Notes: a model not told the origin generated them from the letters alone. DNA of 64,000 nt from an uncultured Gammaproteobacteria bacterium (GCA_951812785.1 OX638335.1:1443653-1507652), one strand, 5' to 3'; positions 20,575 to 42,752 are shown, counted from the stretch's first letter. Made by a program: numbers and translations.

Positions 20575-23500
20575 TTCCTAAGCTGCCTGTGCGGCAGTAA
20601 ACATTGCGTTGGACTTGTACCGCCCGTTTCGTACTTTCTAAGCTGCCTGTGCGGCAGTAAACGTATGCATCCTTCCGGATGATACCAGTTTAGCTTTCTA
20701 AGCTGCCTGTGCGGCAGCTAACTATCGCGCAGTTCTTTTGAGTCCATGACCCACTTTCTAAGCTGCCTGTGCGGCAGCTAACAAGAATCAGTAGCATTTG
20801 AAGATATACTTGAATTTCTAAGCTGCCTGTGCGGCAGTAAACCTAATGCAGAAATCAACTCACAAGATTTATCATTTCTAAGCTGCCTGTGCGGCAGTAA
20901 ACATCGATCAAGCCGCTGGCCGATTTATATCGCGTTTCTAAGCTGCCTGTGCGGCAGTAAACCACTACCACTTGGTCGCCTCGGCGAAGCAATTTTTCTA
21001 AGCTGCCTGTGCGGCAGTAAACTGGTTAATCATACGACCGACTGACGACTTTGATTTCTAAGCTGCCTGTGCGGCAGTAAACTTCATTTTGTTTCTTCCG
21101 ACTTTCCAATCGTTTTTCTAAGCTGCCTGTGCGGCAGTAAACATGTAAAAAATGCATTAGCTGTTAATGCTGTGTTTCTAAGCTGCCTGTGCGGCAGTAA
21201 ACATCGATCAAGCCGCTGGCCGATTTATATCGCGTTTCTAAGCTGCCTGTGCGGCAGTAAACCACCGAGCAGCCAACACCACGGCCGTTCATCATTTCTA
21301 AGCTGCCTGTGCGGCAGTAAACAATGAAAAACTGGAAAGCAGCAGTGCGAACGTTTTCTAAGCTGCCTGTGCGGCAGTAAACGTACATCGCATATTGAGC
21401 AAGAAGTTATGCAATTTCTAAGCTGCCTGTGCGGCAGTAAACACCCTTGACTTATACCTTGAGATTTTGGTACTGTTTCTAAGCTGCCTGTGCGGCAGTA
21501 AACACTGTCGTAAAATGGTACACGGCGGCGGCGTTTTTCTAAGCTGCCTGTGCGGCAGTAAACGCTACACCACCTGTAATATTGACTTGTGCGCCTTTCT
21601 AAGCTGCCTGTGCGGCAGTAAACTACTTATAGCAACCTCAACTGATGTGGTGTCCTTTCTAAGCTGCCTGTGCGGCAGTAAACTACTTATAGCAACCTCA
21701 ACTGATGTGGTGTCCTTTCTAAGCTGCCTGTGCGGCAGTAAACCTTGTTGTTTTTTGTCGCTCTTAGAGCTGACTTTTCTAAGCTGCCTGTGCGGCAGTA
21801 AACTATTGGCTGTTGTCCAATATGCTGCAACTCTTTTTCTAAGCTGCCTGTGCGGCAGTAAACTAGCGAAGTGGTTCACAGCTGCCCAGTTGGATTTTCT
21901 AAGCTGCCTGTGCGGCAGTAAACGCACCGGTCTAGAAATTATAAGTTTACGAAGATTTCTAAGCTGCCTGTGCGGCAGTAAACCCAACTCGGTCTCAAGT
22001 CAAAAAAATCTACTGTTTCTAAGCTGCCTGTGCGGCAGTAAACGTGATCAAGCAATTGATGTGATCGATAAATTATTTCTAAGCTGCCTGTGCGGCAGTA
22101 AACCGGCGGTGGTAGAGGTGAAGCGATATCAGTGTTTTCTAAGCTGCCTGTGCGGCAGTAAACAATTCTTTTTGTCGCTCATAATTCTTGTCATTTTTCT
22201 AAGCTGCCTGTGCGGCAGTAAACGTTTCTTTCTTTTTATCTCTCTCTCTCCTTTCTAAGCTGCCTGTGCGGCAGTAAACGTTAGCATCACTGCGTTACAA
22301 AATATTACACGTTTCTAAGCTGCCTGTGCGGCAGTAAACAACATGTATATTACCTTTGCCCCAAGCGTTTATTTCTAAGCTGCCTGTGCGGCAGTAAACG
22401 GCTAACGCCGGTGACCAAGATGTCTTTGGATTTTCTAAGCTGCCTGTGCGGCAGTAAACCTGTGCATAGTCAAATAATGCATGGTTTTACATTTCTAAGC
22501 TGCCTGTGCGGCAGTAAACTGCATAAGCATGCCTAAAGACTTTCCTCGTGCTTTCTAAGCTGCCTGTGCGGCAGTAAACGTGGCCGAGGCGAAGCAATAT
22601 CTGTCTGGCTCTTTCTAAGCTGCCTGTGCGGCAGTAAACGGTGGTGGAAAACATGCTCTTAATTTTAGTGATTTCTAAGCTGCCTGTGCGGCAGTAAACC
22701 CGACGCCAGACTACAAAGACCTGAATATTTATTTCTAAGCTGCCTGTGCGGCAGTAAACTCGATACACAGGTGACACAACTCAAAATGTATTTTCTAAGC
22801 TGCCTGTGCGGCAGTAAACTCGTGTCACAGTCAGATAATGCATGGATTTACTTTCTAAGCTGCCTGTGCGGCAGTAAACGTGCAGGAGTAGGTACATTAG
22901 GCGACTATCTATTTCTAAGCTGCCTGTGCGGCAGTAAACGTGGCCGAGGCGAGGCAATATCTGTCTGGCTTTTTCTAAGCTGCCTGTGCGGCAGTAAACG
23001 CAACACGTGAGATCGATGAGATCTTATTAAATTTCTAAGCTGCCTGTGCGGCAGTAAACGTGCGTCTGTTATGCGCGGCACAACAGATAACTTTCTAAGC
23101 TGCCTGTGCGGCAGTAAACTTCGCAGCATCAACACGGGACTACAACACAATTTTCTAAGCTGCCTGTGCGGCAGTAAACGGTTAATGGATTTCTGTGCAC
23201 GCCATTCACCCTTTCTAAGCTGCCTGTGCGGCAGTAAACGGTGCAGGATTTCCCTTTCAGCGAATTGATGGTTTCTAAGCTGCCTGTGCGGCAGTAAACC
23301 TGTTGAGATTTTTGACAATGTCGGCGGTGCATTTCTAAGCTGCCTGTGCGGCAGTAAACACAAAAAGAATTCGCACAAAGTGGCATCAGGTTTTCTAAGC
23401 TGCCTGTGCGGCAGTAAACATGAATACCGGCGAGCTCAATCATCTATCGCATTTCTAAGCTGCCTGTGCGGCAGTAAACTGTCTGTTCGACCGTCTACAA

Positions 23501-26500
23501 TGTACAGCAACTTTCTAAGCTGCCTGTGCGGCAGTAAACGGGCAACTTAGCAACACGTAACACAGTGCAAGTTTCTAAGCTGCCTGTGCGGCAGTAAACT
23601 GGCCAAGAATCGACAACCATCATCTTGATGTTTTCTAAGCTGCCTGTGCGGCAGTAAACAAACAGAAATCAATTTTGAGAAAAATCGCTGATTTCTAAGC
23701 TGCCTGTGCGGCAGTAAACCAAAATTGATGGGAAGTCTAGACCTTCTTGAATTTCTAAGCTGCCTGTGCGGCAGTAAACCGCCTTGTTTTGACATCATCC
23801 AATCGATGATATTTCTAAGCTGCCTGTGCGGCAGTAAACTACCCGGCTCACATCTTGGATCTTTTAGATCGTTTCTAAGCTGCCTGTGCGGCAGTAAACT
23901 CGGAAATACTCAACAAAATGAACAACTTACATTTCTAAGCTGCCTGTGCGGCAGTAAACAGCGAATGCTTCAGACCAGTCAGTATTCGGCTTTTCTAAGC
24001 TGCCTGTGCGGCAGTAAACTGATGCTGTGTTCAAACCCAGTTAGCAAGCATTTTCTAAGCTGCCTGTGCGGCAGTAAACTAAAATTCCCTGTTACTCCAA
24101 ATCCTTTGACTTTTCTAAGCTGCCTGTGCGGCAGTAAACGCATGGACACATAATCAGTCTTATGAGTGTTATTTCTAAGCTGCCTGTGCGGCAGTAAACA
24201 TGCTAGGTTACAACGACCAGAATATTTAGGCTTTCTAAGCTGCCTGTGCGGCAGTAAACCTCTTGCAATACGTTGATCGTCAGTTTCCACCTTTCTAAGC
24301 TGCCTGTGCGGCAGTAAACTGTAACTCTTCAATTTCGCATAATTGATTCATTTTCTAAGCTGCCTGTGCGGCAGTAAACTAAAATTCCCTGTTACTCCAA
24401 ATCCTTTGACTTTTCTAAGCTGCCTGTGCGGCAGTAAACTCTGTCTGATTCGATCAATCCCGAAATCCACATTTCTAAGCTGCCTGTGCGGCAGTAAACA
24501 TAGTCGTTTAGCGAGAGGAGCGATTTGGGGATTTCTAAGCTGCCTGTGCGGCAGTAAACCTAGATATGTGGGTCGCCAAGCTCTGCCATCTTTTCTAAGC
24601 TGCCTGTGCGGCAGTAAACTATCGCAATACAAACTACTCACTACGGATCTTTTTCTAAGCTGCCTGTGCGGCAGTAAACTGAAACTGCCTGTAACGCCAA
24701 AACCTTTGACGTTTCTAAGCTGCCTGTGCGGCAGTAAACAGCAATCGGCGGAGTAGTCTCGACAGTCCTTGTTTCTAAGCTGCCTGTGCGGCAGTAAACT
24801 TGATGTTGCAACTGGATCTGCATTTAATCACTTTCTAAGCTGCCTGTGCGGCAGTAAACGCGCTAACAAATAGCGCTGGGATTTTTTGATCGTTTCTAAG
24901 CTGCCTGTGCGGCAGTAAACTATGATTTAGATCTCACACATGCTGAAAGTATTTTCTAAGCTGCCTGTGCGGCAGTAAACGGCAAATGCGAGTGACCAGG
25001 ATGTGTTTGGTTTTTCTAAGCTGCCTGTGCGGCAGTAAACCGAGTGCTATCAGATCAAGTCGATAAAAATCATTTCTAAGCTGCCTGTGCGGCAGTAAAC
25101 AACCCTGGCTATCCTAACGTTTTCGCTCGTGCTTTCTAAGCTGCCTGTGCGGCAGTAAACTTTCCCTTTGTAATATGTCCAATGCCGCTTCGTTTCTAAG
25201 CTGCCTGTGCGGCAGTAAACATGAATATAGGAGAGCTCAATCATCAATTGCTTTTCTAAGCTGCCTGTGCGGCAGTAAACCAGTTAATGCACGGCCGCCA
25301 GCTTCAACGTAATTTCTAAGCTGCCTGTGCGGCAGTAAACAATCAATTTTGAGGAGTATTGCGCATGAACGCTTTCTAAGCTGCCTGTGCGGCAGTAAAC
25401 CAGATGATCCTGCATTAACGATCTACGCGTTATTTCTAAGCTGCCTGTGCGGCAGTAAACTGCCACCATCTTTTGACTTTAGATGCTGTGCGTTTCTAAG
25501 CTGCCTGTGCGGCAGTAAACGGCTTCTTCTCTGACAAATTGACTTGCCAGGGTTTCTAAGCTGCCTGTGCGGCAGTAAACAGTGAGCATGGTCATATAAT
25601 ATCACTCATGTCTTTCTAAGCTGCCTGTGCGGCAGTAAACGTGGTGCAGTGGCGGATGAGGTTGAGTAAGTATTTCTAAGCTGCCTGTGCGGCAGTAAAC
25701 AGCCCGGACAGTCCGGCCCATCTCCGACAACCTTTCTAAGCTGCCTGTGCGGCAGTAAACATTCTGCTCCTAAATAATATCTGATTTTTGTTTTTCTAAG
25801 CTGCCTGTGCGGCAGTAAACATGATCGATGCGCAGTTAGCAAGACTGCGCGCTTTCTAAGCTGCCTGTGCGGCAGTAAACTACATATAGGTGAAATCAAT
25901 TCACATTCCCTCTTTCTAAGCTGCCTGTGCGGCAGTAAACTGTCTCATGTTGTACTGCAAGATTTCTGGCGCTTTCTAAGCTGCCTGTGCGGCAGTAAAC
26001 TTCGTGCTCGTCGTCTTGTCAGCAAATCAACTTTTCTAAGCTGCCTGTGCGGCAGTAAACGTTGTTGATCGTCGCTCTTGGATGCGACGATCTTTCTAAG
26101 CTGCCTGTGCGGCAGTAAACGAAGGTCTTGCAATTGATATATGCACGCTCTCTTTCTAAGCTGCCTGTGCGGCAGTAAACGCAGCACTGCTACTGGTGCG
26201 AGATAACTAAGTTTTCTAAGCTGCCTGTGCGGCAGTAAACTTTTTATCTCAAGCGCCGATGCTGCGCGGGCATTTCTAAGCTGCCTGTGCGGCAGTAAAC
26301 TAAGCTGTAAGACGAGGAAATAATTATGTCATTTTCTAAGCTGCCTGTGCGGCAGTAAACGAATATTCCTTCGGAACGTGTCACCGCATTTATTTCTAAG
26401 CTGCCTGTGCGGCAGTAAACGTGCTGTGACAGCATTAACAATTAACAATAATTTTCTAAGCTGCCTGTGCGGCAGTAAACTTTTTATCTCAAGCGCCGAT

Positions 26501-29500
26501 GCTGCGCGGGCATTTCTAAGCTGCCTGTGCGGCAGTAAACTAAGCTGTAAGACGAGGAAATAATTATGTCATTTTCTAAGCTGCCTGTGCGGCAGTAAAC
26601 GAATATTCCTTCGGAACGTGTCACCGCATTTATTTCTAAGCTGCCTGTGCGGCAGTAAACGTGCTGTGACAGCATTAACAATTAACAATAATTTTCTAAG
26701 CTGCCTGTGCGGCAGTAAACTAAATTTAGCAATGAGAATTGCAGCACTTGTTTTTCTAAGCTGCCTGTGCGGCAGTAAACGACAATTTGTCGAGCAAGCG
26801 TATGAAGAAATCTTTCTAAGCTGCCTGTGCGGCAGTAAACTCATTGCGCCTGCAACTGCGATTGCAATTGCATTTCTAAGCTGCCTGTGCGGCAGTAAAC
26901 AGCAGCCAGAAATGTCAGGGATTGCGTTATTTTTTCTAAGCTGCCTGTGCGGCAGTAAACCAAATGGCAATGTTGGTAAAATGTTCGGTCATTTTCTAAG
27001 CTGCCTGTGCGGCAGTAAACTTTGAAAAACTCAGGTATTAAAGCAAAAAATTTTTCTAAGCTGCCTGTGCGGCAGTAAACCGATCGAGGCGGTGGTAGAG
27101 ATGAAACAGGAGTTTCTAAGCTGCCTGTGCGGCAGTAAACGGACTAATGAGACCAGCAGCTACTAATTCGCTTTTCTAAGCTGCCTGTGCGGCAGTAAAC
27201 TTGCAAAGTGGTTTACTGCTGCACAGTTAGACTTTCTAAGCTGCCTGTGCGGCAGTAAACATAACAACACAAGAAGTAATGAAATTAGTAGTTTTCTAAG
27301 CTGCCTGTGCGGCAGTAAACTTGAAGTCAAATTTACATTGATGCCGGAAAGCTTTCTAAGCTGCCTGTGCGGCAGTAAACTGAAATTTCCGGTAACGCCG
27401 AAGCCTTTGACGTTTCTAAGCTGCCTGTGCGGCAGTAAACATATAATTCTGACATTATTTTTTACCTCGTCTTTTCTAAGCTGCCTGTGCGGCAGTAAAC
27501 GCACGCTTTCAATTCATAAACAGACAATGCACTTTCTAAGCTGCCTGTGCGGCAGTAAACCAACAGACAGTCAGACAGTCGCAGATCAATATTTTCTAAG
27601 CTGCCTGTGCGGCAGTAAACGTACGTCTTTTTTACACAAACTATTATCAACGTTTCTAAGCTGCCTGTGCGGCAGTAAACTCGACTTCCATTGTTTGCAT
27701 TCGAATTTTGTCTTTCTAAGCTGCCTGTGCGGCAGTAAACGCCGAGCGGTAACGATACTGCCGGACCCCTCTTTTCTAAGCTGCCTGTGCGGCAGTAAAC
27801 ATAAAATTAATTACATGCGCAAACACTATAATTTTCTAAGCTGCCTGTGCGGCAGTAAACACACGCTTTCGATTCATAAACAGACAATGCATTTTCTAAG
27901 CTGCCTGTGCGGCAGTAAACATAAAATTAATTACATGCGCAAACACTATAATTTTCTAAGCTGCCTGTGCGGCAGTAAACTTTTTGGTTAGCACCAAGAG
28001 CCCGCGCACGCGTTTCTAAGCTGCCTGTGCGGCAGTAAACATGTTGTCATTGATGAAAATACACATGTTTTTTTTCTAAGCTGCCTGTGCGGCAGTAAAC
28101 AAACACTCGCGACTATCGCGGCTCCGCCAACATTTCTAAGCTGCCTGTGCGGCAGTAAACGAACAAAATTAGGTATCAAAGGCTTGCTAGAATTTCTAAG
28201 CTGCCTGTGCGGCAGTAAACTCGATTTTGATGTTGCGAAGTTGCCGCCTCTTTTTCTAAGCTGCCTGTGCGGCAGTAAACCTCCGACTGATGGCGGCATG
28301 CCAAGATAATCTTTTCTAAGCTGCCTGTGCGGCAGTAAACTGTCGCGATACTAGTGATTCTAGAACGTAGATTTTCTAAGCTGCCTGTGCGGCAGTAAAC
28401 TGTCGCGATACTAGTGATTCTAGAACGTAGATTTTCTAAGCTGCCTGTGCGGCAGTAAACAGGTAATCTTCCTGCATTATTGCCATGGATTCTTTCTAAG
28501 CTGCCTGTGCGGCAGTAAACGCAACTGGTACAAATAACCACAAATATTGAATTTTCTAAGCTGCCTGTGCGGCAGTAAACTGAAATTGGTGCAGGAGTTG
28601 GGCGAAGAGATGTTTCTAAGCTGCCTGTGCGGCAGTAAACGCAACTGGTACAAATAACCACAAATATTGAGTTTTCTAAGCTGCCTGTGCGGCAGTAAAC
28701 ATACTACAGATAACAAAAATTAATAAGCAACTTTTCTAAGCTGCCTGTGCGGCAGTAAACCGTGTGTTTTTTTGTTTTGTTGTGACTGATTTTTTCTAAG
28801 CTGCCTGTGCGGCAGTAAACGGAACTGCAGCATATCGGACAACAACCAATTCTTTCTAAGCTGCCTGTGCGGCAGTAAACCGGCACAACTGACAACGGAC
28901 TTGAGCTTGTGTTTTCTAAGCTGCCTGTGCGGCAGTAAACGCTTATTACCCTGGCCCGCGGGTAGATCTTCGTTTCTAAGCTGCCTGTGCGGCAGTAAAC
29001 TATCAAATGCAGAATCAGTATCGCCGCCGAGATTTCTAAGCTGCCTGTGCGGCAGTAAACATGTTGCGATTACTAATGTTGCATCGCAACAGTTTCTAAG
29101 CTGCCTGTGCGGCAGTAAACTGCTCTTCGTTCTCTGTCTTTTCGTTCTTCTGTTTCTAAGCTGCCTGTGCGGCAGTAAACTTTCTTGACGCATTTCTACA
29201 ACAGCTTCAACCTTTCTAAGCTGCCTGTGCGGCAGTAAACATGAAATTAGTGGTGGAATTAGGAGAAGAAATTTTCTAAGCTGCCTGTGCGGCAGTAAAC
29301 GCAATTAGTACAAATAACCACAGATATAACATTTTCTAAGCTGCCTGTGCGGCAGTAAACCAGGAAGGGATTTTTTTGACCAGCCCGTTGGCTTTCTAAG
29401 CTGCCTGTGCGGCAGTAAACTGAGTTGGGGAGCAATCGGCGGCGCTATAGGTTTTCTAAGCTGCCTGTGCGGCAGTAAACGTAACTTAGATTTTGTAGTT

Positions 29501-32500
29501 CAAAAACGAGGCTTTCTAAGCTGCCTGTGCGGCAGTAAACACACGCTTTCAGTACATAAACAAACGATGCACTTTCTAAGCTGCCTGTGCGGCAGTAAAC
29601 TTTTAGAAGGATGTGGATTATGTGTTTTAATCTTTCTAAGCTGCCTGTGCGGCAGTAAACGCACAAAATTAGGTATTGCTGGTCTATTAGAATTTCTAAG
29701 CTGCCTGTGCGGCAGTAAACTATTCGAGATTCAGGTGTTTCTTTTGACCTGATTTCTAAGCTGCCTGTGCGGCAGTAAACGACGCGCGTTAACTGCGCAA
29801 GAAGAATTGGTCTTTCTAAGCTGCCTGTGCGGCAGTAAACTTGTCATCGCGCTGCGCAAAGCGCGAGTGGTTTTTCTAAGCTGCCTGTGCGGCAGTAAAC
29901 GTCGTTCGAGTGCTTCAGCACCAGCAACACCCTTTCTAAGCTGCCTGTGCGGCAGTAAACACAATGTCAATAATCTCTGTACGACAATTAACTTTCTAAG
30001 CTGCCTGTGCGGCAGTAAACTGAAATTAGTGGTAGAATTAGGTGAAGAACTGTTTCTAAGCTGCCTGTGCGGCAGTAAACTCTGTCTGATTCGATCAATT
30101 CCGAAGTCCACATTTCTAAGCTGCCTGTGCGGCAGTAAACTCTGTCTGATTCGATCAATTCCGAAGTCCACATTTCTAAGCTGCCTGTGCGGCAGTAAAC
30201 TCTGTCTGATTCGATCAATTCCGAAGTCCACATTTCTAAGCTGCCTGTGCGGCAGTAAACACAGTGTGCATCTCATAACTAAGCAAGACACTTTTCTAAG
30301 CTGCCTGTGCGGCAGTAAACATAGTCGTTTAGCGAGAGGAGTAATTTGGGGATTTCTAAGCTGCCTGTGCGGCAGTAAACAGATGCTCAAAAATATGCAA
30401 CTTAGTAAGTTATTTCTAAGCTGCCTGTGCGGCAGTAAACGCGGTACTGCTGCTGTACGCGTGTAATCAACTTTTCTAAGCTGCCTGTGCGGCAGTAAAC
30501 ATTCAGCCTATCAACACATTACAACAGCAATCTTTCTAAGCTGCCTGTGCGGCAGTAAACGGACTTTACCGCGCGGACGAAAGCGATAGCGCCTTTCTAA
30601 GCTGCCTGTGCGGCAGTAAACTACCACAATGTGACCTTCATACTAACGGGGCATTTCTAAGCTGCCTGTGCGGCAGTAAACAAGATTTACATTAGCATTA
30701 CCAACGATCTGTTTTTCTAAGCTGCCTGTGCGGCAGTAAACCAAATGATCCTGTTACTCCGAAGCCCTTGACTTTTCTAAGCTGCCTGTGCGGCAGTAAA
30801 CGAAATCTAGATTTCGTAGTTCAAAGACGCGGATTTCTAAGCTGCCTGTGCGGCAGTAAACGTTACTGGTTAAGACTCTTTCAACAGATTGTTTTTCTAA
30901 GCTGCCTGTGCGGCAGTAAACGCCCCGAAAGTGGTCGATAACGACAAAAGTGCTTTCTAAGCTGCCTGTGCGGCAGTAAACGTCTATTACGTACCTAGAC
31001 TTGCCCCGAAAGTTTTCTAAGCTGCCTGTGCGGCAGTAAACTCAATACAAACAGAAAACGAATGAAACCAAAGTTTCTAAGCTGCCTGTGCGGCAGTAAA
31101 CGAATCTGCTTGGTTGCGTACGAGACGCGCTGATTTCTAAGCTGCCTGTGCGGCAGTAAACTCCCTGCGCGATTTCGTTGCCTGATTGATCCTTTTCTAA
31201 GCTGCCTGTGCGGCAGTAAACTAATGTTTGTCGTTTTGCTTGCGTCATACTGCTTTCTAAGCTGCCTGTGCGGCAGTAAACTCCGCGCAAAGATTTTCAC
31301 GTCGTGCCGCGCGTTTCTAAGCTGCCTGTGCGGCAGTAAACATTTTGAAAATGTCAAAAAAGGTGATTTGGGCTTTCTAAGCTGCCTGTGCGGCAGTAAA
31401 CCAATACCGCGCTCTGTATTCAAACTGGATCATTTTCTAAGCTGCCTGTGCGGCAGTAAACATAGCTAAACTTGGTAATGTAAATGAAGCTCATTTCTAA
31501 GCTGCCTGTGCGGCAGTAAACTTAGATGGTCAGTCGAAGACGCAAAAGCGGCTTTTCTAAGCTGCCTGTGCGGCAGTAAACGTGTCAGAATATATGGAAA
31601 AATTTGGCCGCTTTTTCTAAGCTGCCTGTGCGGCAGTAAACCTAGCAAGCCTTTAATACCTAACTTCGTCCGATTTCTAAGCTGCCTGTGCGGCAGTAAA
31701 CATATCACGAAGCAGCATTGGACATATTGGTAATTTCTAAGCTGCCTGTGCGGCAGTAAACTTTTAATGGCATTTAAAGATTCATTCTTGTCATTTCTAA
31801 GCTGCCTGTGCGGCAGTAAACACAATTAGTAAGAATAACCACAAATATAGAGTTTTCTAAGCTGCCTGTGCGGCAGTAAACTGGCAAGTCTATATGTAGA
31901 AGAAGAAGCGAAATTTCTAAGCTGCCTGTGCGGCAGTAAACTTAGTCAGTACAAACTACTTACGACCGATCTTTTTCTAAGCTGCCTGTGCGGCAGTAAA
32001 CATTACACAATCACGATTATGCAACTGTAGAGATTTCTAAGCTGCCTGTGCGGCAGTAAACTTTCTATAACAGCTTCAACTGAAGCAGTGTCATTTCTAA
32101 GCTGCCTGTGCGGCAGTAAACGCTATAGAACTAGAACAAGAAGAATTAGAATTTTTCTAAGCTGCCTGTGCGGCAGTAAACCAACTAGAGAGTGATACTT
32201 AAAAAATTAGGGTTTTCTAAGCTGCCTGTGCGGCAGTAAACTTTGTTATTGTCGCTTTCTGATGCGACTGGATTTTCTAAGCTGCCTGTGCGGCAGTAAA
32301 CATATCATCAATTATTTACAGTTAGGCACAGATTTTCTAAGCTGCCTGTGCGGCAGTAAACGTAACGAGACTGCTGGACCGCGCTGCGCCCAGTTTCTAA
32401 GCTGCCTGTGCGGCAGTAAACCATAGCACAGCACTAATACGGTGCACGCCGATTTTCTAAGCTGCCTGTGCGGCAGTAAACGAAATCTCGATTTCGTAGT

Positions 32501-34822
32501 TCAGAAGCGCGGCTTTCTAAGCTGCCTGTGCGGCAGTAAACTTGCAAAGTGGTTCACAGCAGCGCAGTTAGATTTTCTAAGCTGCCTGTGCGGCAGTAAA
32601 CAGCAACCGGAAATGTCAGGGATCGCGTTATTCTTTCTAAGCTGCCTGTGCGGCAGTAAACGAGTCGACAGCGCCAGATTTTGGTGCTGTCGATTTCTAA
32701 GCTGCCTGTGCGGCAGTAAACATGAAAGATTGGAAAGCAGCGGTACGAACCTTTTCTAAGCTGCCTGTGCGGCAGTAAACGGATTTCAAATCCCAGATAC
32801 GGCGGCAGTCGATTTCTAAGCTGCCTGTGCGGCAGTAAACCTATGATTATCGGATAAATTTTCATCATTATATTTCTAAGCTGCCTGTGCGGCAGTAAAC
32901 GGCATTTCAATGGGCTCGGAAGGCATGAAATATTTCTAAGCTGCCTGTGCGGCAGTAAACGTAACGAGACTGCTGGACCGCGCTGCGCCCAGTTTCTAAG
33001 CTGCCTGTGCGGCAGTAAACCATAGCACAGCACTAATACGGTGCACGCCGATTTTCTAAGCTGCCTGTGCGGCAGTAAACTGATGCCTGAGAGCGGGGCT
33101 GTTGTACCAAGTTTTCTAAGCTGCCTGTGCGGCAGTAAACACGTTCTCCCGCATACCCGTCAACTTCACCACTTTCTAAGCTGCCTGTGCGGCAGTAAAC
33201 TAAGAAAGAAGCAATGAGTGAGGCGGCTCGCCTTTCTAAGCTGCCTGTGCGGCAGTAAACTCGTGCCGATTAGTTGCACAGAAGTACTGCCTTTTCTAAG
33301 CTGCCTGTGCGGCAGTAAACAACTACTTAGATATGATAAGCGATTAGATAAATTTCTAAGCTGCCTGTGCGGCAGTAAACCCCGTCAAGTTATTATAACT
33401 GGTCCGCGCGGCTTTCTAAGCTGCCTGTGCGGCAGTAAACACTATGAGAGACAAAAAGAATTTGCGCAGAGCTTTTCTAAGCTGCCTGTGCGGCAGTAAA
33501 CGCCCGTCAAAACTTTGTGCAATATAAGGCATCTTTCTAAGCTGCCTGTGCGGCAGTAAACCGAAAAAAACAGATACACGTCTGTATTATATGTTTCTAA
33601 GCTGCCTGTGCGGCAGTAAACGTATCGTGCGCCGTATCTGGCGCGAGCCTCTTTTTCTAAGCTGCCTGTGCGGCAGTAAACTGAGCGCATGTTTACCGCC
33701 ACCTAAGTATTCTTTTCTAAGCTGCCTGTGCGGCAGTAAACGTGCAGTAGTGCCAAGCGGCAACGAAACTGCATTTCTAAGCTGCCTGTGCGGCAGTAAA
33801 CTGAGTGCGTGTTTGCCTCCGCCAAGGTACTCATTTCTAAGCTGCCTGTGCGGCAGTAAACCCAAAACTGGATGCATGAGCGGAGCAGCCATGTTTCTAA
33901 GCTGCCTGTGCGGCAGTAAACCAGTTAGTAAAAATGGTATGACATTCGGTTGCTTTCTAAGCTGCCTGTGCGGCAGTAAACACGCGGTCGAATGTCCAAG
34001 TATAGAGTCGCCATTTCTAAGCTGCCTGTGCGGCAGTAAACTTCTGCGTTTTGCCGCATCGATGACATCTGCGTTTCTAAGCTGCCTGTGCGGCAGTAAA
34101 CGCTTTGTTGAGCCTTTTTTTCGGCCAGCACCTTTTCTAAGCTGCCTGTGCGGCAGTAAACGGCTCTCAAATACGAGATAACACATCAATTGATTTCTAA
34201 GCTGCCTGTGCGGCAGTAAACCTAGCAACTTGCTTGCAAGTTGCTAGCCTAGAGTTTCTAAGCTGCCTGTGCGGCAGTAAACATGGCTAGTAATAAGATA
34301 CGAGCTCGTCGACTTTTCTAAGCTGCCTGTGCGGCAGTAAACCGGAGATAATTATGAGTTGGGGTAGTGCAATATTTCTAAGCTGCCTGTGCGGCAGTAA
34401 ACTGTGGATAGACGGCTATTTTTTAGCGACCGATTTTCTAAGCTGCCTGTGCGGCAGTAAACATGGTTTAGAGCAAGTTACAGATCGCGACTTATTTCTA
34501 AGCTGCCTGTGCGGCAGTAAACTCTGTCTGATTCGATCGATGCCAAAATCCACATTTCTAAGCTGCCTGTGCGGCAGTAAACTTAGCGAGAGGAGCAATT
34601 TGGGGCGGATTGGCTTTCTAAGCTGCCTGTGCGGCAGTAAACAAACGCAGAATGTCAGCGCGACAATACAAGCATTTCTAAGCTGCCTGTGCGGCAGTAA
34701 ACACCAGGGAGGATTGACCAAAAGATCGAGACAATTTCTAAGCTGCCTGTGCGGCAGTAAACCTTAAACACTACTATTATAGTGTTTGCGCATATTTCTA
34801 AGCTGCCTGTGCGGCAGTAAAC
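20575..34822 (-). CRISPR. type I-F CRISPR array, ~238 repeats and 237 spacers, transcribed right to left
   Basis: 28-nt repeat (minus-strand reading GTTTACTGCCGCACAGGCAGCTTAGAAA) on a strict 60-nt period with mostly 32-nt spacers. The distal repeat at 20575-20602 carries one substitution. The leader-proximal repeat ends at 34822, next to cas6f. Confidence 0.98.
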
Positions 34823-34952
34823 ACCAAGTATAATGCGCAAAAAAACAGCTACAACAAACACTTAACTCCAATCGATATAAAATATCAATGAAATCAAGGC
34901 TTGTTGTAACTCATTGATTTTATTGAGCGTTAAAGAACGGTAAAAATAAAGG
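34823..34952 (-). promoter_or_regulatory. CRISPR leader (AT-rich) between cas6f and the first repeat
   Basis: 130-bp AT-rich segment directly upstream of the leader-proximal repeat in array orientation. A TATACT -10-like box sits about 10 nt before the repeat. Confidence 0.6.
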
Positions 34953-35504
34953 TCAAAACCAGGGGACGGTGGCAATTTTGGATAATCCAAATAAGTCAAA
35001 TTTTCCCGTGATGGGCTGACTGGTTAAATCACTAAATTTAATGTAGCGCCTGTGTTTATGTTTGTTCGATCCACTGATGAGTTCGATATAGGGATTCTCT
35101 AATCCTTGGGTAAACATCTTTGCACGGTATTGTTTAACCTCTTCCTCTGTGATTGAACCACGTTTTATCAATCGATTCAGTTTGGCTTGGCTCATGTTGG
35201 CTTGCACTCGGCTAACGGTGCGGTATTGAACGTTATCCGGTACAGGTTGAATCGCTGACACCTGACAGTAACCGCTCATGCCGCCAACCCAGTTTTTATC
35301 CTGTAATTGAGTCAATGCAGTTTGTGTTCCATGTATGCGCAACTGATCGCCCAACGTCTTTTGATAGGCTGGAAAGCTCACGCCAATGTCGGTGCTGTTC
35401 AGGTCACACAGGGCTTTGTGGAATTTGGCGTACAACGAATCCATAAGTATCCTGGATCGGAATTCCGGGTCGGGTAATAACGTGATATTCAAGTAGTTAT
35501 CCAT
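34953..35504 (-). CDS. cas6f: Cas6f (Csy4) crRNA endoribonuclease
   Basis: 183 aa; MDNYLNITLLPDPEF...GLSKIATVPWF matches the Cas6f N- and C-terminal signatures. Last gene of the operon, next to the leader. Confidence 0.93.
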   Translation of the reverse strand: MDNYLNITLLPDPEFRSRILMDSLYAKFHKALCDLNSTDIGVSFPAYQKTLGDQLRIHGTQTALTQLQDKNWVGGMSGYCQVSAIQPVPDNVQYRTVSRVQANMSQAKLNRLIKRGSITEEEVKQYRAKMFTQGLENPYIELISGSNKHKHRRYIKFSDLTSQPITGKFDLFGLSKIATVPWF

Positions 35505-35512
35505 ATATCTAC

Positions 35513-36538
35513 CTATTTATCACTTTCACCGAATACACCGCCACGTACCAATACCGCCATCACGTAATGTTCATCTTCCACGCGTTCCAATGCACCACCA
35601 CGCGCCCAATGATCAAAAAAGCTATAGAAGTCTTGTTTTTCTGCGGGTGTACGGAAGGCTTTACCCTGATTGGTCACTGCACCATAGGGTTCGATAGCGA
35701 TTGGGCCAACCGAAGCTTCCGGGTCAGCAAACTCTCCATACCAAGTATCAATGGTACGGATGGCATTACCTATTTTTTGCGAGTGCATGGCAGCAATATT
35801 ATTTACATGGTAAAGAATTTTGCTTTTCTCACCTTTACCTTTATCCAGCACGAGTTCTTCGCTGGGATAGACATCTTGTGCTTTACCCACTTTGGCATAG
35901 CAGGTGATATCGAGCATAAGAAAATCATCTTCACTGGCTAATGCTGTTGCAATGCGTTCTGCCAAGATAGTAACTTCCGCATCACTTGCTGACAGGTCAC
36001 GCGGATTAAACTCCAAAGCATTAAATTGCCAACTCTGCTCTGCACCCTGGTTTAAGGCGCTGACTTCGACCTGGATGTTTTCGGCTCCAAAGCGGTTGCG
36101 CCAAAGGAATCGTGCATTGGCGATGTTCAAGGCATAACGCTTTGCCAGTTCTCTCATACCCCGTGTTTGCAGATAGCCATTGACTGCTGCTTGGTAGCTT
36201 TGTTTGAATAAGGCATTGTTGCAGGCTGAAGGCTGTTGCAAGCCACCCAATACTTTTAAGGTAAAGTGTAATTTAAGCGTGTCTTGTTCTGTACCCAAAG
36301 CACAGGCATCTATCGTTTGTAAATTGGGTTTTTCAACTTCTGCGTTTAATTTTTGCGGGTCTTTTTTTATCGCCTCCTTTAGGCGGTTAGCGATCGTCCC
36401 CCGCACTGATTTCTCTTGCAGTTTCAGCGGTGTCACTTCATTTTTATTATCCCAACTTGTGCCATACATATAGCCATCACTGGGTACCAGTTTTTTTTCA
36501 AATGCGAGTACAGATGCAATATTGTCTTTCTTAGCCAT
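35513..36538 (-). CDS. cas7f: Cas7f (Csy3) Cascade backbone subunit
   Basis: 341 aa, in the conserved I-F gene order. Confidence 0.9.
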   Translation of the reverse strand: MAKKDNIASVLAFEKKLVPSDGYMYGTSWDNKNEVTPLKLQEKSVRGTIANRLKEAIKKDPQKLNAEVEKPNLQTIDACALGTEQDTLKLHFTLKVLGGLQQPSACNNALFKQSYQAAVNGYLQTRGMRELAKRYALNIANARFLWRNRFGAENIQVEVSALNQGAEQSWQFNALEFNPRDLSASDAEVTILAERIATALASEDDFLMLDITCYAKVGKAQDVYPSEELVLDKGKGEKSKILYHVNNIAAMHSQKIGNAIRTIDTWYGEFADPEASVGPIAIEPYGAVTNQGKAFRTPAEKQDFYSFFDHWARGGALERVEDEHYVMAVLVRGGVFGESDK

Positions 36539-36556
36539 AGCTATTCTCCTGATATG

Positions 36557-37489
36557 TTAAAAATCAAATTCACTTGACGGATCTTTTGCAACCGTATTAA
36601 GGGCTACACATTGGTAAAAGTTACTAGCCTTATCAACTTGATAGCACCACAACATGTCGCTTATTGATTCAAAGCGATGAGGCATTTTGAATTCACCTAA
36701 GGTCACCAGGCTTTCAGCGAAGCAATGTGGTTGATCTGGGTCACGTTGGTTTTTGGCTTGGCCTAATTCACTAATACCGTGGAAGCCTGTAGCAATGGGT
36801 ACAATCCAGCCTAGGGGCTTGTCAGTTTGGCTTTTGCGGCGTTTTTTCCATAACACGCCATCTTTTGTTTGTTCGCAACGATGATGAATTGCCACATAGT
36901 CAATTAACGCAGCCATAGCATCATCCTGGCCTTGCCCCATCGCTTCAATCATTAGGTCGCGGCGCTCAATCAGCACATAACCTGGCATAATTTTTCGCGT
37001 AAACCGACGTAAATCCTCTTCGTTGTTATCTTCAAGTACAAAAATAGCAGGTGGGCTAAAGCTTTGAATATCCCCACCCGCCATTTTTATTTTGCTGTTG
37101 AGTAAATGGCTTATTTGCGCTTTTATTGCATCTTCTTGCTCCTGGCTTATCCCCTGCAATTCCAGTAATAAAGACACCTCAAGATGGCAACGAGCTTCCT
37201 CAATAAACGATGAACGCGATCCGGTTTTATCTAAGGGGTTACCGGTACCTATAATGGATGACACAAAATCATTTGTTCCACGATAGGTTTGTAAGTTCAT
37301 TTGGTGGCTCACCACACCGGTTGCCGTCACCTTTACATCTATGCCACCCTCATTTAATTTACGTTGTAGGGCGTGAGTCGCCCCTAACCATGCGGTCATC
37401 GCGGGAAAGCCAATGGTAAAAGGGCTGGAGAGGGCATTAGCGTTATGAATGTGAAGATGTGGAATCAGCAGTATCTTTTTATAGCTCAT
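36557..37489 (-). CDS. cas5f: Cas5f (Csy2)
   Basis: 310 aa; overlaps cas8f stop as ATGA; I-F order. Confidence 0.88.
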   Translation of the reverse strand: MSYKKILLIPHLHIHNANALSSPFTIGFPAMTAWLGATHALQRKLNEGGIDVKVTATGVVSHQMNLQTYRGTNDFVSSIIGTGNPLDKTGSRSSFIEEARCHLEVSLLLELQGISQEQEDAIKAQISHLLNSKIKMAGGDIQSFSPPAIFVLEDNNEEDLRRFTRKIMPGYVLIERRDLMIEAMGQGQDDAMAALIDYVAIHHRCEQTKDGVLWKKRRKSQTDKPLGWIVPIATGFHGISELGQAKNQRDPDQPHCFAESLVTLGEFKMPHRFESISDMLWCYQVDKASNFYQCVALNTVAKDPSSEFDF

Positions 37490-38802
37490 CGTAACGCCTC
37501 CTTGTGTTTCACGACCTGCTTATGGATATGCTTAAATTCGCCGTCTGAAAATATAAAAGTTTTTTTGCCGAGCAATTTTTCATAACCATTAAAGATAAAT
37601 TTAGCGATGTCAGTGCATAGCATATCTAACCAGTCATTTTCATCTTCTCGTTGCGCTTCATTGGCCATACAGAGCCATATTTTTTGAGTAGGGTTTAACT
37701 GGCTAGTATCTGGGTTGTATTGCGCTTCGCTTACGCTTCTTACTCGCCACATTCTTTCAATAATTCGATCCATGATGGCCTGGTAATATTCATCGCGCGC
37801 ACTCCGGATATGCCTATTATTTTTGTGGTTAAGAAATATTAAGTCATGCAAGGCATAAAACAAATCTCTACATTGAAAATAACTGAACGATTGGCTAAAA
37901 AAGTCCACTGTTGGAAAGTGGATGTCACGCTTGATTAATTTGGGTGGCTCGCTCGGTAGCAGATGCACTTTGCCACCGTTTTGATTGTTCAAAACGCTAA
38001 TATTCTGCGGCTTGGTACCGCCATAACCCATCGTGGTTAAGTTGGCCAGTTGCTTATAACCCCCTATATACATTTCATTGTTCTTTTCACATTTCGCAAA
38101 GTCTCTTGCGCCCGCATCCGGACCTATATACATTTCATTGTTCTTTTCACAAGTTCTGGCAATTTTTGTTTCTTCAGAAAAACGGATGGTATCAATCCTT
38201 TTTCTCAGCTCGAATACTATGCCAGATGCAGACAGTATCGATAATTGGTGGTAGCCATTTTCTACAGGAAAGTAGACCTGTTTAATTTTGGAACTCGTTA
38301 TGCTATCAGCATCGCTATTCGTCATGGCTAAAAAGCCTTCTTTTAAAGTGCTGTATGACTCTGCTTTAATCTTGAGAAGTTGTTGTGCTAAATCAGAATC
38401 TTGCTCGATGTGGCTAAGTAAGGTTTGCCCATCTTGCATATTAAGCGTCAAAAATTTATAGACATCTAATGCGGCAGCATTGCCCAGTGCATCGGCCTCC
38501 ACAACAACGTTGCCACTGCGTAAATAGCCATCGTTGCTTGCTTGGCTATCGGCAATAATTGATGAGGCATAGCCATTCTTATTTTTACGTGAACTAGGAT
38601 GGCTGAAAGTACATGGATGCGTGGATATGGACATTTGCCCCGCTCGCTTGGCGGCATTTGGCAACCAATTTTCCAAACTAAATTGCTCGGAGCACTCCTG
38701 TTCCTTAGCCTGGATCATCGTTTCATCTGCACCAGCATGAAGATTTTTCTTTAACCAAGCCGCTTTACGCTTGTCAAAGAATTCAGCTATTACTTTCTCC
38801 AT
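37486..38802 (-). CDS. cas8f: Cas8f (Csy1) large subunit
   Basis: 438 aa, first gene of the csy operon. Contains an internal 29-bp perfect direct repeat (see findings). Confidence 0.88.
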   Translation of the reverse strand: MEKVIAEFFDKRKAAWLKKNLHAGADETMIQAKEQECSEQFSLENWLPNAAKRAGQMSISTHPCTFSHPSSRKNKNGYASSIIADSQASNDGYLRSGNVVVEADALGNAAALDVYKFLTLNMQDGQTLLSHIEQDSDLAQQLLKIKAESYSTLKEGFLAMTNSDADSITSSKIKQVYFPVENGYHQLSILSASGIVFELRKRIDTIRFSEETKIARTCEKNNEMYIGPDAGARDFAKCEKNNEMYIGGYKQLANLTTMGYGGTKPQNISVLNNQNGGKVHLLPSEPPKLIKRDIHFPTVDFFSQSFSYFQCRDLFYALHDLIFLNHKNNRHIRSARDEYYQAIMDRIIERMWRVRSVSEAQYNPDTSQLNPTQKIWLCMANEAQREDENDWLDMLCTDIAKFIFNGYEKLLGKKTFIFSDGEFKHIHKQVVKHKEALR

Positions 38803-39013
38803 CTACATTATCCTTTTTACGCTAATAATTTTAGCCAAAAGCCAGTTATAAAAACTTTGCAGAAGCATCTTTAGGTGATGATACTTGCTGGTTGAATCCT
38901 GAGACATCTCATCAAGAACGAGTACTTCTTGCTGGCGAGAAACCGTTAGTGTCTCTTTTCTCACATACCGCTTAGCCATATTTTTTATACCCTACTTTAT
39001 CATTGATAGGTCA

Positions 39014-39042
39014 AGCATAAGCATAAAGATCAATATTTTCAA
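39014..39042 (-). promoter_or_regulatory. candidate sigma70 promoter for the csy operon (TTGAAA-17-TATGCT)
   Basis: -35 TTGAAA (complement of 39037-39042), 17-nt spacer, -10 TATGCT (complement of 39014-39019). It directly abuts the CC PAM of the psi-spacer target. Confidence 0.45.
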
Positions 39043-39077
39043 CCATTTAACTATTGGTATAAAATACTCCAACTACT
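39043..39077 (+). promoter_or_regulatory. CC PAM plus seed-matched target site of the adjacent psi-spacer; overlaps an extended -10 (TGgTATAAA, 39055-39063) that faces the mini-CRISPR
   Basis: Positions 1-14 of the site match psi-spacer 39096-39128 except at positions 6 and 12; 22/33 overall; CC immediately 5'. Confidence 0.55.
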
Positions 39078-39156
39078 GAAAAAGCAGCTTAGAAAATTTA
39101 CCTATTCGTGGTTATTTATCCATTTACTGCTTACTGCCGCATAGGCAGCTTGAACC
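39068..39156 (+). ncRNA. degenerate mini-CRISPR (psiR1-psiS-psiR2), candidate crRNA-like regulator of the CreR/CreA type
   Basis: psiR1 at 39068-39095 matches 19/28 but ends in a perfect GCAGCTTAGAAA 5' handle. 33-nt psi-spacer at 39096-39128. psiR2 at 39129-39156 matches 22/28 and keeps the intact hairpin CTGCCGCATAGGCAG. Orientation is opposite to the cas genes. Confidence 0.6.
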
Positions 39157-39182
39157 ATCTACCTTGATCTCCAGTAGGTGGT

Positions 39183-42545: not shown

Positions 42546-42699
42546 CCGTTACCCAGATAGGTTAGAATCCGGTTGTCGTCTGGCCAAGAATCGACAACCA
42601 TCATCTTGATGTTTACAGCACAAACGAAATGCTGCATCCAAAGGGATTTGCGAGTGACATTGCTTACCACACAATGTTTCAGCTCACCCCTTAGGCGAC

Positions 42700-42728: not shown

Positions 42729-42730
42729 TC

Positions 42731-42752
42731 CCTATAAAGAGTTATTTTAGCA
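42731..42752 (+). promoter_or_regulatory. CC PAM plus seed-matched target of psi-spacer 42800-42819
   Basis: CC at 42731-42732; the next 10 nt (tataaagagt) match the psi-spacer perfectly; 15/20 overall. Confidence 0.55.

What the first reader, a model, noticed from the sequence alone, without database searches (positions are those of the whole stretch)
24061..30752. Families of near-identical spacers hit the same protospacer with synonymous variants
Five spacers target one site with third-codon-position differences and encode the same peptide on the reverse strand, VKGFGVTG(N/S)F. They lie at 24061-24092, 24361-24392, 24661-24692, 27361-27392 and 30721-30752. Other variant families are tctgtctgattcgatcaat[ct]ccgaa[ag]tccaca (24421, 30061, 30121, 30181, 34501), gaaatct[ac]gatttcgtagttca[ag]a (29461, 30781, 32461), gcaa[ct]t[ag]gtacaaataaccaca[ag]ata (28501, 28621, 29281, 31801), acacgctttc[ag]attcataaacagacaatgca (27481, 27841, 29521) and ttgcaaagtggtt[tc]ac[ta]gc[ta]gc[ac]cagttaga (21841, 27181, 32521). 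This pattern is expected when related mobile elements that differ at synonymous sites repeatedly re-prime acquisition. It points to a few conserved genes of a diversifying invader family being targeted again and again.
Basis: seen in the sequence. Interest (0 to 1): 0.55.

Follow-up and report, generated by a model that had tools for sequence, protein, structure and literature searches.

The report
CRISPR array re-sampling diverged tiny phages
A very long bacterial CRISPR array has stored the same target sites again and again from diverged relatives of its invaders, at least one of which is a tiny single-stranded-DNA phage family (Microviridae); it is a clear example of a known kind of host–virus arms-race record, not a new mechanism.

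Summary
The array is a type I-F1 CRISPR array with 238 repeats and 237 spacers (20575-34822), read on the minus strand. Its leader and cas genes lie at the high-coordinate end.

58 spacer pairs share at least 20/32 bases in the same register; shuffling gives about 0.2. They form 29 families of two kinds:
- Exact copies: 13 redundant spacers, always within 10 units of each other. These are local intra-array duplications.
- 20 diverged families: 112 of 168 variable sites fall in one codon phase (null 79.8±3.2), the peptides are conserved, and the flanking repeats are invariant. In-array drift is excluded; these are independent acquisitions from diverged coding genes.

The codon phase places the GG/CC PAM inside Gly, Pro or Trp codons, so only PAMs fixed by protein constraint can be hit again across variants.

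About 30 spacers, including five diverged families, map to Microviridae VP1, VP2 and VP4.

Priming is plausible: same-strand runs and repeated co-adjacent pairs point to it, but it is not shown. Precedents exist in Legionella (gokushoviruses, LME-1). Verdict: a new member of a known kind.

The parts
20575..34822 (-). Type I-F1 CRISPR array: 238 repeats of 28 nt (GTTTACTGCCGCACAGGCAGCTTAGAAA in crRNA sense) and 237 spacers (230 of 32 nt). The oldest end is at 20575.
   Evidence: Rfam CRISPR-DR4 RF01317 on the minus strand. The three degenerate repeats are at 20575, 20695 and 20755.
34823..34952 (-). AT-rich leader between cas6f and the first (newest) repeat
   Evidence: sequence; position relative to cas6f
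34953..43829 (-). cas operon: cas6f 34953-35504, csy3 35513-36538, csy2 36557-37489, csy1 37486-38802, cas2-3 39183-42545, cas1 42891-43829
   Evidence: NCBIfam type I-F equivalog models, all above their cut-offs
24080..24111 (-). Family 9 member (idx58), encodes (P)VKGFGVTGNF; identical to 24380-24411
24380..24411 (-). Family 9 member (idx63), exact copy of idx58 five units away
24680..24711 (-). Family 9 variant (idx68), VKGFGVTGSF
27381..27412 (-). Family 9 variant (idx113), VKGFGVTGNF
30742..30773 (-). Family 9 variant (idx169), VKGFGVTGSF
24440..24531 (-). Family 10 (idx64, VDFGIDRIRQ) directly followed by family 11 (idx65): first occurrence of a recurring adjacent pair
30081..30352 (-). 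Family 10 as three identical tandem copies (idx158-160), then idx161, then family 11 (idx162): second occurrence of the pair
34523..34614 (-). Family 10 variant (idx232) followed by idx233, which overlaps the family 11 site shifted by 8 nt: third occurrence, 4-5 spacers from the leader
21864..21895 (+). Family 4 (AKWFTAAQLD + Gly from the PAM); other members at 27201-27232 and 32542-32573. All 8 variable sites are third codon positions and no amino acid changes.
29481..29512 (+). Family 25 (NLDFVVQKRG); other members at 30802-30833 and 32482-32513
28521..28672 (.). Families 23-24-23 (idx132-134). idx132 and idx134 differ by one base at crRNA position 2 (seed). The 24/23 pair recurs at 29241-29332; other members are at 30021-30052 and 31822-31853.
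27501..27532 (+). Family 19 (TLSIHKQTMH); other members at 27861-27892 and 29541-29572
22640..22731 (+). idx34 (GGGKHALNFS) and idx35 (DARLQRPEYL): adjacent spacers that are also adjacent in Microviridae VP1. idx34 starts at the PAM of idx35.
24200..24231 (+). idx60, VP1 motif ARLQRPEYLG; 29/32 nt to GenBank microviruses, followed by GG in all 11 genomes tested
33622..33893 (-). idx217-221: five consecutive spacers, all mapping to VP1 and all in the same orientation. idx218 and idx220 (family 29, EYLGGGKHAL) are two variants of one site with 9 synonymous differences.
23420..23451 (+). Family 8 (idx47; partner idx77 at 25221-25252): both encode EYRRAQSSIA of VP1 with 6 synonymous differences, including CGN/AGR arginine codon switches
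24620..24651 (+). Family 12 (idx67; partner 31942-31973): SQYKLLTTDL(G), matching the VP1 N-terminus (residue 9)
22400..22431 (+). Family 5 (idx30; partners 23960-23991 and 24981-25012): ANA(G/S)DQ(D/S)VFG + Trp (T+GG), matching the VP1 C-terminal part
21804..21835 (-). idx20, and idx137 at 28821-28852: the same VP1 site (ELQHIGQQPI) captured from opposite strands
23360..23391 (+). idx46 together with idx182 (31522-31553): contiguous peptide QKEFAQSGIRWSVEDAKAA of the microvirus pilot protein VP2
26241..26720 (.). Exact tandem duplication of a four-spacer block (idx94-97 = idx98-101; 240-bp unit)
32362..32453 (.). Two-spacer block (idx196-197) repeated exactly at 32961-33052 (idx206-207), ten units away

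Best explanation

The diverged 'families' are separate acquisitions of the same protospacer from diverged relatives of the same invader genes. The register is identical because the I-F adaptation machinery measures 32 nt from a CC/GG PAM. A site can be hit again across diverged variants only if its PAM is conserved. That holds when the PAM sits in codon positions 1-2 of a Gly or Pro codon, or in a Trp codon, and this is where the codon phase places it. Family members differ mainly by synonymous changes because the target genes are under purifying selection.

At least one invader family is Microviridae (gokushovirus-like, 4-5 kb). It is hit mostly in the capsid gene VP1, and also in VP2 and VP4. 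Such a tiny genome offers only a few hundred PAM sites, so dense sampling re-hits sites often.

Primed adaptation, in which an older mismatched spacer triggers a burst of new acquisitions, probably adds to this. That step is inferred, not shown.

The 13 exact duplicate spacers are a different thing: local duplications inside the array by slippage or unequal recombination between identical repeats.
For: System identity:
- All six Cas proteins match I-F equivalog models.
- The repeats match RF01317 on the minus strand.
- The degenerate repeats lie at the end distal to the leader.

Similarity and its coding origin:
- 58 same-register pairs against about 0.2 expected.
- 112/168 variable sites in one codon phase, z about 10.
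- 109 variable nucleotides give 10 variable amino-acid columns.
- 235/238 repeats are identical.

PAM position:
- 12 families have the phase that puts GG/CC at codon positions 1-2. Two families have the other phase and both end in T, giving TGG.
- The PAM can be read directly from the overlap of idx60 with family 29.
- The expected PAM is present in 49/80 hits in distant relatives, against a 3-9% dinucleotide background.

Microviridae targets:
- blastn hits to VP1.
- 25 spacers score at least 36 in a peptide scan, against 1.5 for shuffled spacers.
- Two IMG/VR microviruses and four metagenomic microviruses match the same ~20 spacers.
- A 151-aa pseudo-protein made only of spacer translations retrieved 41 proteins, all carrying Pfam PF02305 (Phage_F), best E = 9e-11.

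Bursts of acquisition:
- idx217-221 all map to VP1 in one orientation.
- Orientation runs test, P=0.014.
- Family pairs 10/11, 23/24 and 6/7 are co-adjacent in at least two places, P=0.02.
- idx132 and idx134 differ only at seed position 2.

Two kinds of repeat:
- Exact duplicates are 1-10 units apart; diverged pairs are 2-190 units apart.
Against: - Searches that found nothing. The metagenome scan gave one chance hit. Their invader, and its genome size, are therefore unknown.
- Even for VP1 the best nucleotide match is 29/32, so the true target viruses are not in the databases. Mismatch order between old and new spacers cannot be tested.
- The orientation-run and co-adjacency tests are only moderately significant. 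Recombination between arrays could also produce them.
- The source is probably a metagenome-assembled contig, so exact block duplications could be assembly effects.
Confidence: 0.8

Rival explanations
1. Pure re-sampling without priming (a birthday effect). Naive acquisition from a very small replicon with few PAM sites hits the same sites repeatedly by chance when different variants infect at different times.
For: - 44 distinct-variant same-site pairs among 224 unique spacers would be expected for about 570 equally likely sites.
- Microvirus relatives have about 360-790 GG+CC sites, from the frequencies.
- Within the detectable conserved parts of VP1, about 28 spacers give 6-8 same-site pairs. 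That is near my rough uniform expectation of about 5, which assumes about 75 usable sites.
Against: - It requires that nearly the whole array derives from one tiny replicon family. Only about 30 spacers can be assigned to Microviridae.
- It does not explain the same-orientation runs (P=0.014).
- It does not explain the recurring adjacent family pairs (P=0.02).
Confidence: 0.3
2. Intra-array duplication followed by mutational drift of the copies.
For: - Real exact duplications exist: tandem copies (idx17/18, idx129/130, idx158-160), a 4-spacer block and a 2-spacer block.
- All exact duplicates lie within 10 units of each other.
Against: - Drift in untranslated array DNA cannot be period-3 or preserve peptides.
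- Spacers in families differ at 6-37% of positions, while the repeats between them show zero substitutions.
- Diverged pairs are spread up to 190 units apart.
- Arginine CGN/AGR switches in family 8 keep the peptide unchanged.
Confidence: 0.02
3. Array mosaicism. Segments of arrays from related strains, each immunised by its local virus variant, were joined by recombination between identical repeats. This produced co-linear blocks of variant spacers in one array.
For: - The same ordered pairs recur: family 10 then 11 at idx64/65, 160/162 and 232/233; family 24 then 23 at idx133/134 and 144/145; families 6 and 7 at a spacing of 6.
- A dispersed exact 2-spacer block (idx196-197 = idx206-207).
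- The array is unusually long.
Against: - Co-linearity covers only 2-3 spacers, not long blocks.
- The order is reversed in other cases: family 18 then 4 at idx105/110, but 4 then 18 at idx199/200.
- Acquisition from diverged invaders is still required, so this is an addition rather than an alternative.
Confidence: 0.15
4. Assembly artefact. A metagenome assembler concatenated or collapsed array variants from a mixed population.
For: - The window's RpoB is identical to a protein on a single 2.16-Mb NCBI/ENA contig.
- Its named relatives are labelled as metagenome-assembled gammaproteobacteria.
- Exact tandem blocks are a typical weak point of repeat assembly.
Against: - Variant spacers are interleaved with about 150 unique spacers at perfectly regular 60-nt spacing.
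- Concatenation of strain variants would give long co-linear repeats of the array, and these are absent.
Confidence: 0.05

Closest known systems
Legionella pneumophila CRISPR arrays (I-C, I-F, II-B) targeting Gokushovirinae (Deecker et al. 2021, bioRxiv 10.1101/2021.03.08.434514)
   Same: - Spacers map mostly to conserved parts of microvirus VP1, fewer to VP4 and VP2.
- Adjacent microvirus spacers within an array are read as multiple exposures and priming.
- The true phage is not in the databases.
- The type I-F repeat is nearly the same.
   Different: - The host here is not Legionella (RpoB best named match is Thioalkalivibrio at 78%).
- A single array holds about 30 assignable microvirus spacers, compared with 35 across 600 Legionella isolates.
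- Several sites here are stored as multiple synonymous variants in the same register.
Overlapping old and new spacers against LME-1 in L. pneumophila (Rao et al. 2016, PMC5071653, Fig. 7)
   Same: Two spacers of different age target the same region of one element. The authors read this as escape followed by primed re-acquisition.
   Different: - There the target sequence is known, and the older spacer carries PAM or seed mismatches.
- Here the targets are unknown, so the direction of updating cannot be read.
- There are 20 families here rather than two pairs.
Primed adaptation in type I-F and type I systems (established knowledge, as I recall it: Richter et al. 2014 and Staals et al. 2016 for Pectobacterium I-F; Fineran et al. 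2014 for tolerance of many mismatches)
   Same: - CC PAM and 32-nt spacers.
- Bursts of spacers from one target with strand bias.
- Mismatched spacers can still prime.
   Different: No experiment or target genome here links an older mismatched spacer to a later burst. Priming is inferred only.
Regulatory mini-arrays (crRNA-like RNAs) in I-F1 loci (Shmakov et al. 2023, bioRxiv 10.1101/2023.03.03.530964)
   Same: This applies to the side observation.
- A degenerate repeat-spacer-repeat lies between cas2-3 and csy1, transcribed opposite to cas3.
- A nearby CC-flanked partial target has mismatches at positions 6 and 12.
   Different: This locus has a second such element, between cas1 and cas2-3. 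None of this bears on the spacer families themselves.

Membership tests
Type I-F1 CRISPR-Cas locus | cas1, cas2-3 fusion, csy1, csy2, csy3 and cas6f in that order next to the array | tested here: met
   NCBIfam equivalogs TIGR03637, TIGR02562, TIGR02564-02566 and TIGR02563, all above their cut-offs
Type I-F1 CRISPR-Cas locus | 28-nt repeat of the CRISPR-DR4 type and 32-nt spacers | tested here: met
   RF01317 at 46.8 bits against a 35-bit gathering score for the listed repeats; 230/237 spacers are 32 nt
Type I-F1 CRISPR-Cas locus | CC PAM 5' of the protospacer (non-target strand) | tested here: met
   The overlap of idx60 with family 29 shows CC/GG directly. 49/80 homologous sites in distant microviruses keep it, against a 3-9% background. 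The codon-phase inference agrees.
Spacers targeting Microviridae | Spacer translations match the capsid protein F/VP1 family | tested here: met
   25 spacers score at least 36 against 1.5 for shuffled spacers. The pseudo-protein of spacer peptides hits only PF02305 proteins.
Spacers targeting Microviridae | Near-identical protospacer (at most 5 mismatches, correct PAM) in a sequenced virus | tested here: inconclusive
   Met only for idx35 and idx60 (29/32 with GG). These lie in the most conserved VP1 motif, so no specific virus is identified.
   No significant match in 15 microvirus genomes (P>0.4), IMG/VR, phages or plasmids, or 5.8 billion proteins
Record of primed adaptation | Several spacers against one target, acquired consecutively | tested here: met
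   idx217-221, idx34-35, idx46-48 and idx59-60 all map to microvirus genes. Recurring adjacent family pairs, P=0.02.
Record of primed adaptation | Strand bias of the spacers acquired in one episode | tested here: inconclusive
   9 orientation runs among 30 mapped spacers, P=0.014. The geometry relative to a priming site cannot be reconstructed.
Record of primed adaptation | The older spacer is mismatched and the newer one matches the contemporary target | not testable with these tools
   No target genome is available; the best nucleotide identity is 29/32
Intra-array duplication with drift | Substitutions random with respect to codon phase, and also present in repeats | tested here: not met
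   Period-3 excess, P<5e-5; no repeat substitutions outside the trailer end
Intra-array duplication (without drift) | Exact copies, adjacent or in blocks | tested here: met
   14 identical pairs, all 1-10 units apart, including a 4-spacer tandem block and a 2-spacer block

The most novel reading that the evidence does not exclude
The array may be an almost single-purpose, chronologically ordered record of more than 200 acquisitions in an arms race with one or two tiny fast-evolving replicons.

On this reading the retained, repeatedly re-acquired protospacers are those whose PAM lies in Gly, Pro or Trp codons, so the PAM cannot escape by synonymous mutation. Priming would then 'update' the very protospacer that primed.

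The unmatched families would belong to hypervariable genes of the same microvirus lineage, or to a wholly unsampled element of an uncultured gammaproteobacterium.
Probability: 0.2. Interest if true: 0.5.

Novelty: new member of a known kind. Interest (0 to 1): 0.3.

Why it matters
- It links an uncultured gammaproteobacterium with a small genome (2.16-Mb contig) to gokushovirus-like Microviridae as a recurrent enemy. Most such phages have no known host.
- One array stores up to four synonymous variants of the same site in time order. This is a natural sample of how much an invader population diverges while a host lineage persists.
- It shows in natural data which protospacers stay re-usable: those whose PAM is locked by an amino-acid codon.
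- None of this changes how CRISPR adaptation is understood. Its value is as a clean, data-rich example and a host-virus link.

Tried and rejected
Searches for targets that found nothing useful:
- megablast of the whole array against phages gave nothing. Against plasmids it gave only repeat-like hits in Legionella, Serratia and Aeromonas.
- blastn of the concatenated spacers against plasmids gave nothing.
- Degenerate codon patterns for families 9, 10, 4, 25, 19 and 21, and for EYLGGGKHAL, gave 0 hits in IMG/VR.
- The single metagenome scan (family 10 pattern) gave one hit. It lies antisense to an outer-membrane protein gene on a 124-kb contig, which is the chance level I estimated of about 0.5. 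I rejected it.
- A pseudo-protein of the unmatched family peptides hit nothing meaningful in PHROGs apart from the known VP1 stretch. It also hit nothing in 5.8 billion proteins.
- HMMER profiles of microvirus proteins against 10-residue spacer peptides had no power.
- The family peptides are not encoded elsewhere in the window.

Host identification:
- Exact-protein look-ups for Csy3, EF-Tu and RpoB returned no contig.
- The cluster look-up gave no names.
- The genome scan with Cas6f found only 57-66% relatives.
- I considered a Legionella host because of the repeat and the literature. RpoB rules it out.

Other:
- A weak hit of idx202 to a DUF4373 gene of Vibrio phages (E=8) was treated as chance.

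Full report
**What is there**

The region is a CRISPR array of 238 repeats and 237 spacers at 20575-34822. 235 repeats are identical. The three degenerate ones sit at the low-coordinate end.

Directly beyond the high-coordinate end lie an AT-rich leader and a complete type I-F1 operon on the minus strand: cas6f, csy3, csy2, csy1, cas2-3 and cas1, all above the NCBIfam cut-offs. Rfam calls the repeats CRISPR-DR4 on the minus strand. So crRNAs are read from the minus strand. The newest spacers are at high coordinates and the oldest at low coordinates.

The sequences and groupings it gave are right.

**Is the similarity real?**

Yes.
- 58 spacer pairs share at least 20 of 32 bases at offset 0. 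Composition-preserving shuffles give about 0.2 per array, and every other offset gives at most five pairs.
- Single-linkage clustering gives 29 families with 73 spacers. 224 of the 237 spacers are unique.

**Two different phenomena**

*Exact duplicates.* 14 identical pairs are all 1-10 units apart. They include:
- tandem copies: idx17/18, idx129/130 and the triplet idx158-160;
- a four-spacer block duplicated in tandem (26241-26480 = 26481-26720);
- a two-spacer block repeated ten units away.

These are best read as slippage or unequal recombination between identical repeats. Assembly effects cannot be excluded.

*Diverged families.* Twenty families hold 2-4 distinct variants that differ at 1-12 positions. 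Their members lie 2-190 units apart.
- 112 of 168 variable sites fall in a single codon phase. The null is 79.8±3.2, with a maximum of 94 in 20,000 permutations.
- In the 14 families with a clear frame, 109 variable nucleotides change only 10 amino-acid columns.
- Family 8 includes CGN/AGR arginine switches that leave the peptide EYRRAQSSIA intact.
- An array is not translated, and the repeats between these spacers show no substitution. In-array drift is therefore excluded.
- The variants were copied from diverged, protein-coding homologues.

**Why the same register?**

In window orientation the I-F PAM is GG, immediately 3' of the spacer. This is CC 5' of the spacer in crRNA sense.
- In 12 families the variable phase puts that GG/CC at codon positions 1-2. 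This makes a Gly codon when the gene runs with the plus strand and a Pro codon when it runs the other way.
- The two families with the other phase both end in T, giving TGG (Trp).
- With a random phase, 12 of 14 in one given phase has my own estimated probability of about 1e-4.
- The simplest reading is ascertainment. A site can be re-acquired from diverged variants only if its PAM survives divergence, and that holds when the PAM is fixed by an amino acid.
- The PAM is also seen directly. idx60 (…CGA CCA GAA TAT TTA GGC) overlaps family 29 (A GAA TAC TTA GGT GGC…). This shows CC before the latter and GG after the former.
- In distant microvirus relatives the expected dinucleotide is present at 49 of 80 homologous sites, against a 3-9% background.

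**Targets**

Nucleotide searches of the array found no phage. In plasmids they found only repeat-like matches or nothing.

A sensitive blastn of the concatenated spacers hit the major capsid gene of many Microviridae. Follow-up:
- I scanned six-frame spacer peptides against nine GenBank microviruses. 25 spacers scored at least 36, against 1.5 for shuffled spacers.
- A degenerate pattern for one motif retrieved two 4.4-4.5 kb IMG/VR microviruses that match about 20 spacers.
- A 151-residue pseudo-protein built only from spacer translations retrieved 41 proteins from 5.8 billion. All carry Pfam Phage_F, best E = 9e-11.
- Four 4.4-4.9 kb contigs encoding such proteins match the same spacers.

The spacers tile contiguous VP1 stretches:
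- DARLQRPEYLGGGKHALNFS
- WAQRGPAVSLPLGTTAPLSGI
- SEHGHIISLMSVRPSTMYSN
- AGVGTLGDYLGMPPSVG

They also cover a VP2 stretch (QKEFAQSGIRWSVEDAKAA) and one VP4 site.

Families 5, 8, 12, 26 and 29 belong to VP1. Family 26 is an exact duplicate pair rather than a diverged family.

They also match nothing in IMG/VR, the phage and plasmid collections, PHROGs, the 5.8-billion-protein set or the rest of the window. The one metagenome hit is a chance match antisense to a porin-like gene. Their invader is unknown. It may be hypervariable genes of the same viruses or something else.

**Priming or chance re-sampling?**

Microvirus relatives have roughly 360-790 GG+CC sites. 44 distinct-variant same-site pairs among 224 unique spacers is what uniform sampling of about 570 sites would give (my calculation). 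So a birthday effect alone could suffice, but only if most of the array came from such a tiny replicon. That is not shown.

In favour of episodic, probably primed, acquisition:
- five consecutive spacers (idx217-221) all map to VP1 in one orientation;
- mapped spacers form 9 orientation runs where about 15 are expected (P=0.014);
- the same family pairs are adjacent in separate places: 10/11 three times, 23/24 and 6/7 twice (P=0.02);
- idx132 and idx134 differ only at seed position 2, the classic escape position.

These signals are moderate. Recombination between arrays could mimic some of them. I regard priming as likely but unproven.

**Comparison with what is known**

Deecker et al. 2021 reported that L. 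pneumophila arrays of types I-C, I-F and II-B hold 35 spacers against Gokushovirinae across 600 isolates: 25 in VP1, 5 in VP4 and 4 in VP2. They read adjacent spacers as priming. Rao et al. 2016 showed pairs of old mismatched and new perfect spacers against overlapping sites of LME-1.

The present array is the same kind of record in a different host. It is denser, and it has many same-register synonymous variants.

The host is not Legionella. Its RpoB is identical to a protein on a 2.16-Mb NCBI/ENA contig. The named close relatives are labelled only 'MAG: Gammaproteobacteria bacterium', and the best named species match is Thioalkalivibrio at 78%.

**Verdict**

- It is a new member of a known kind, of modest interest.

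Noticed in passing
window 39079-39156 (target 39043-39077); L007:6622, L008:6529, L009:1039: A crRNA-like mini-array lies on the plus strand, antisense to the cas genes, in the cas2-3/csy1 gap.
- Structure: truncated repeat ending in the handle CTTAGAAA, then a 33-nt spacer-like ATTTACCTATTCGTGGTTATTTATCCATTTACT, then a repeat with an intact hairpin.
- 51 nt upstream on the same strand is a CC-flanked partial target. It matches positions 1-5, 7-11 and 13-14, with mismatches exactly at positions 6 and 12.
- The target overlaps a sequence resembling an extended -10 promoter element (TGGTATAAAAT).
- Reverse-oriented isolated repeats sit at the same position in three related I-F loci.
- It fits the I-F1 regulatory mini-arrays of Shmakov et al. 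2023.
   Followed up: partly
window 42772-42847 (target 42731-42749): A second mini-array, also on the plus strand, lies in the unusually long 345-bp gap between cas1 and cas2-3. It has two degenerate repeats around a 20-nt spacer-like TATAAAGAGTCGTTTTACAC. A CC-flanked 15/17 match lies 67 nt away. This position is not the typical one described for I-F1.
   Followed up: partly
window 23600-23631 and 42581-42612: Array spacer idx50 matches the chromosome 32/32, 36-67 nt upstream of the cas2-3 start codon and about 120-150 nt from the target of the cas1/cas2-3 mini-array. The flank is AA, not CC, so no interference is expected. The site includes a hairpin (GGTTGTCG…CGACAACC). It may be a survivor of self-acquisition triggered by the regulatory crRNA-like RNA; that is speculation.
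   Followed up: partly
window 33201-33232 vs 17569-17600; 34703-34734 vs 11937-11968: Two more spacers match the host chromosome without a PAM. idx210 matches 32/32 just upstream of an IS3-type integrase-core ORF (17855-18313). idx235, the second-newest spacer, matches 29/32 at 11937-11968. Both sites lie in the IS-rich stretch next to the array, which suggests that some invaders carry the same insertion sequences.
   Followed up: partly
window 10300-20574: Between the tRNA-Thr/Gly/Tyr-tuf cluster and the array trailer lies a decayed defence island.
- hsdS fragment: 12888-13703.
- hsdR fragments (ResIII and helicase C): 15604-16802.
- Pieces of IS1595 (10534-11115), an IS3-type element (17855-18313) and IS4 (19274-20476).

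   Followed up: partly
window 21804-21835 / 28821-28852; 28161-28192 / 31642-31673: Some sites were captured from both strands. idx20 and idx137 cover the same VP1 motif in opposite orientation. idx126 (family 21) and idx184 overlap in reverse complement, 26/30 at an offset of 2.
   Followed up: partly
window 22224-22251: One spacer is only 28 nt long and of low complexity (GTTTCTTTCTTTTTATCTCTCTCTCTCC). Five spacers are 33 nt and one is 31 nt.
   Followed up: no
window 45489-46223: A pentapeptide-repeat protein (weak HetL/Qnr-like matches, below the cut-offs) is encoded about 1.7 kb beyond cas1, in a stretch of lower GC (about 37%).
   Followed up: no
window 811-4893: The window's RpoB is 100% identical to a protein on a single 2,158,385-bp NCBI/ENA contig. 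Many relatives at 90-97% identity exist in metagenomes, so sister populations are available for comparing arrays.
   Followed up: partly
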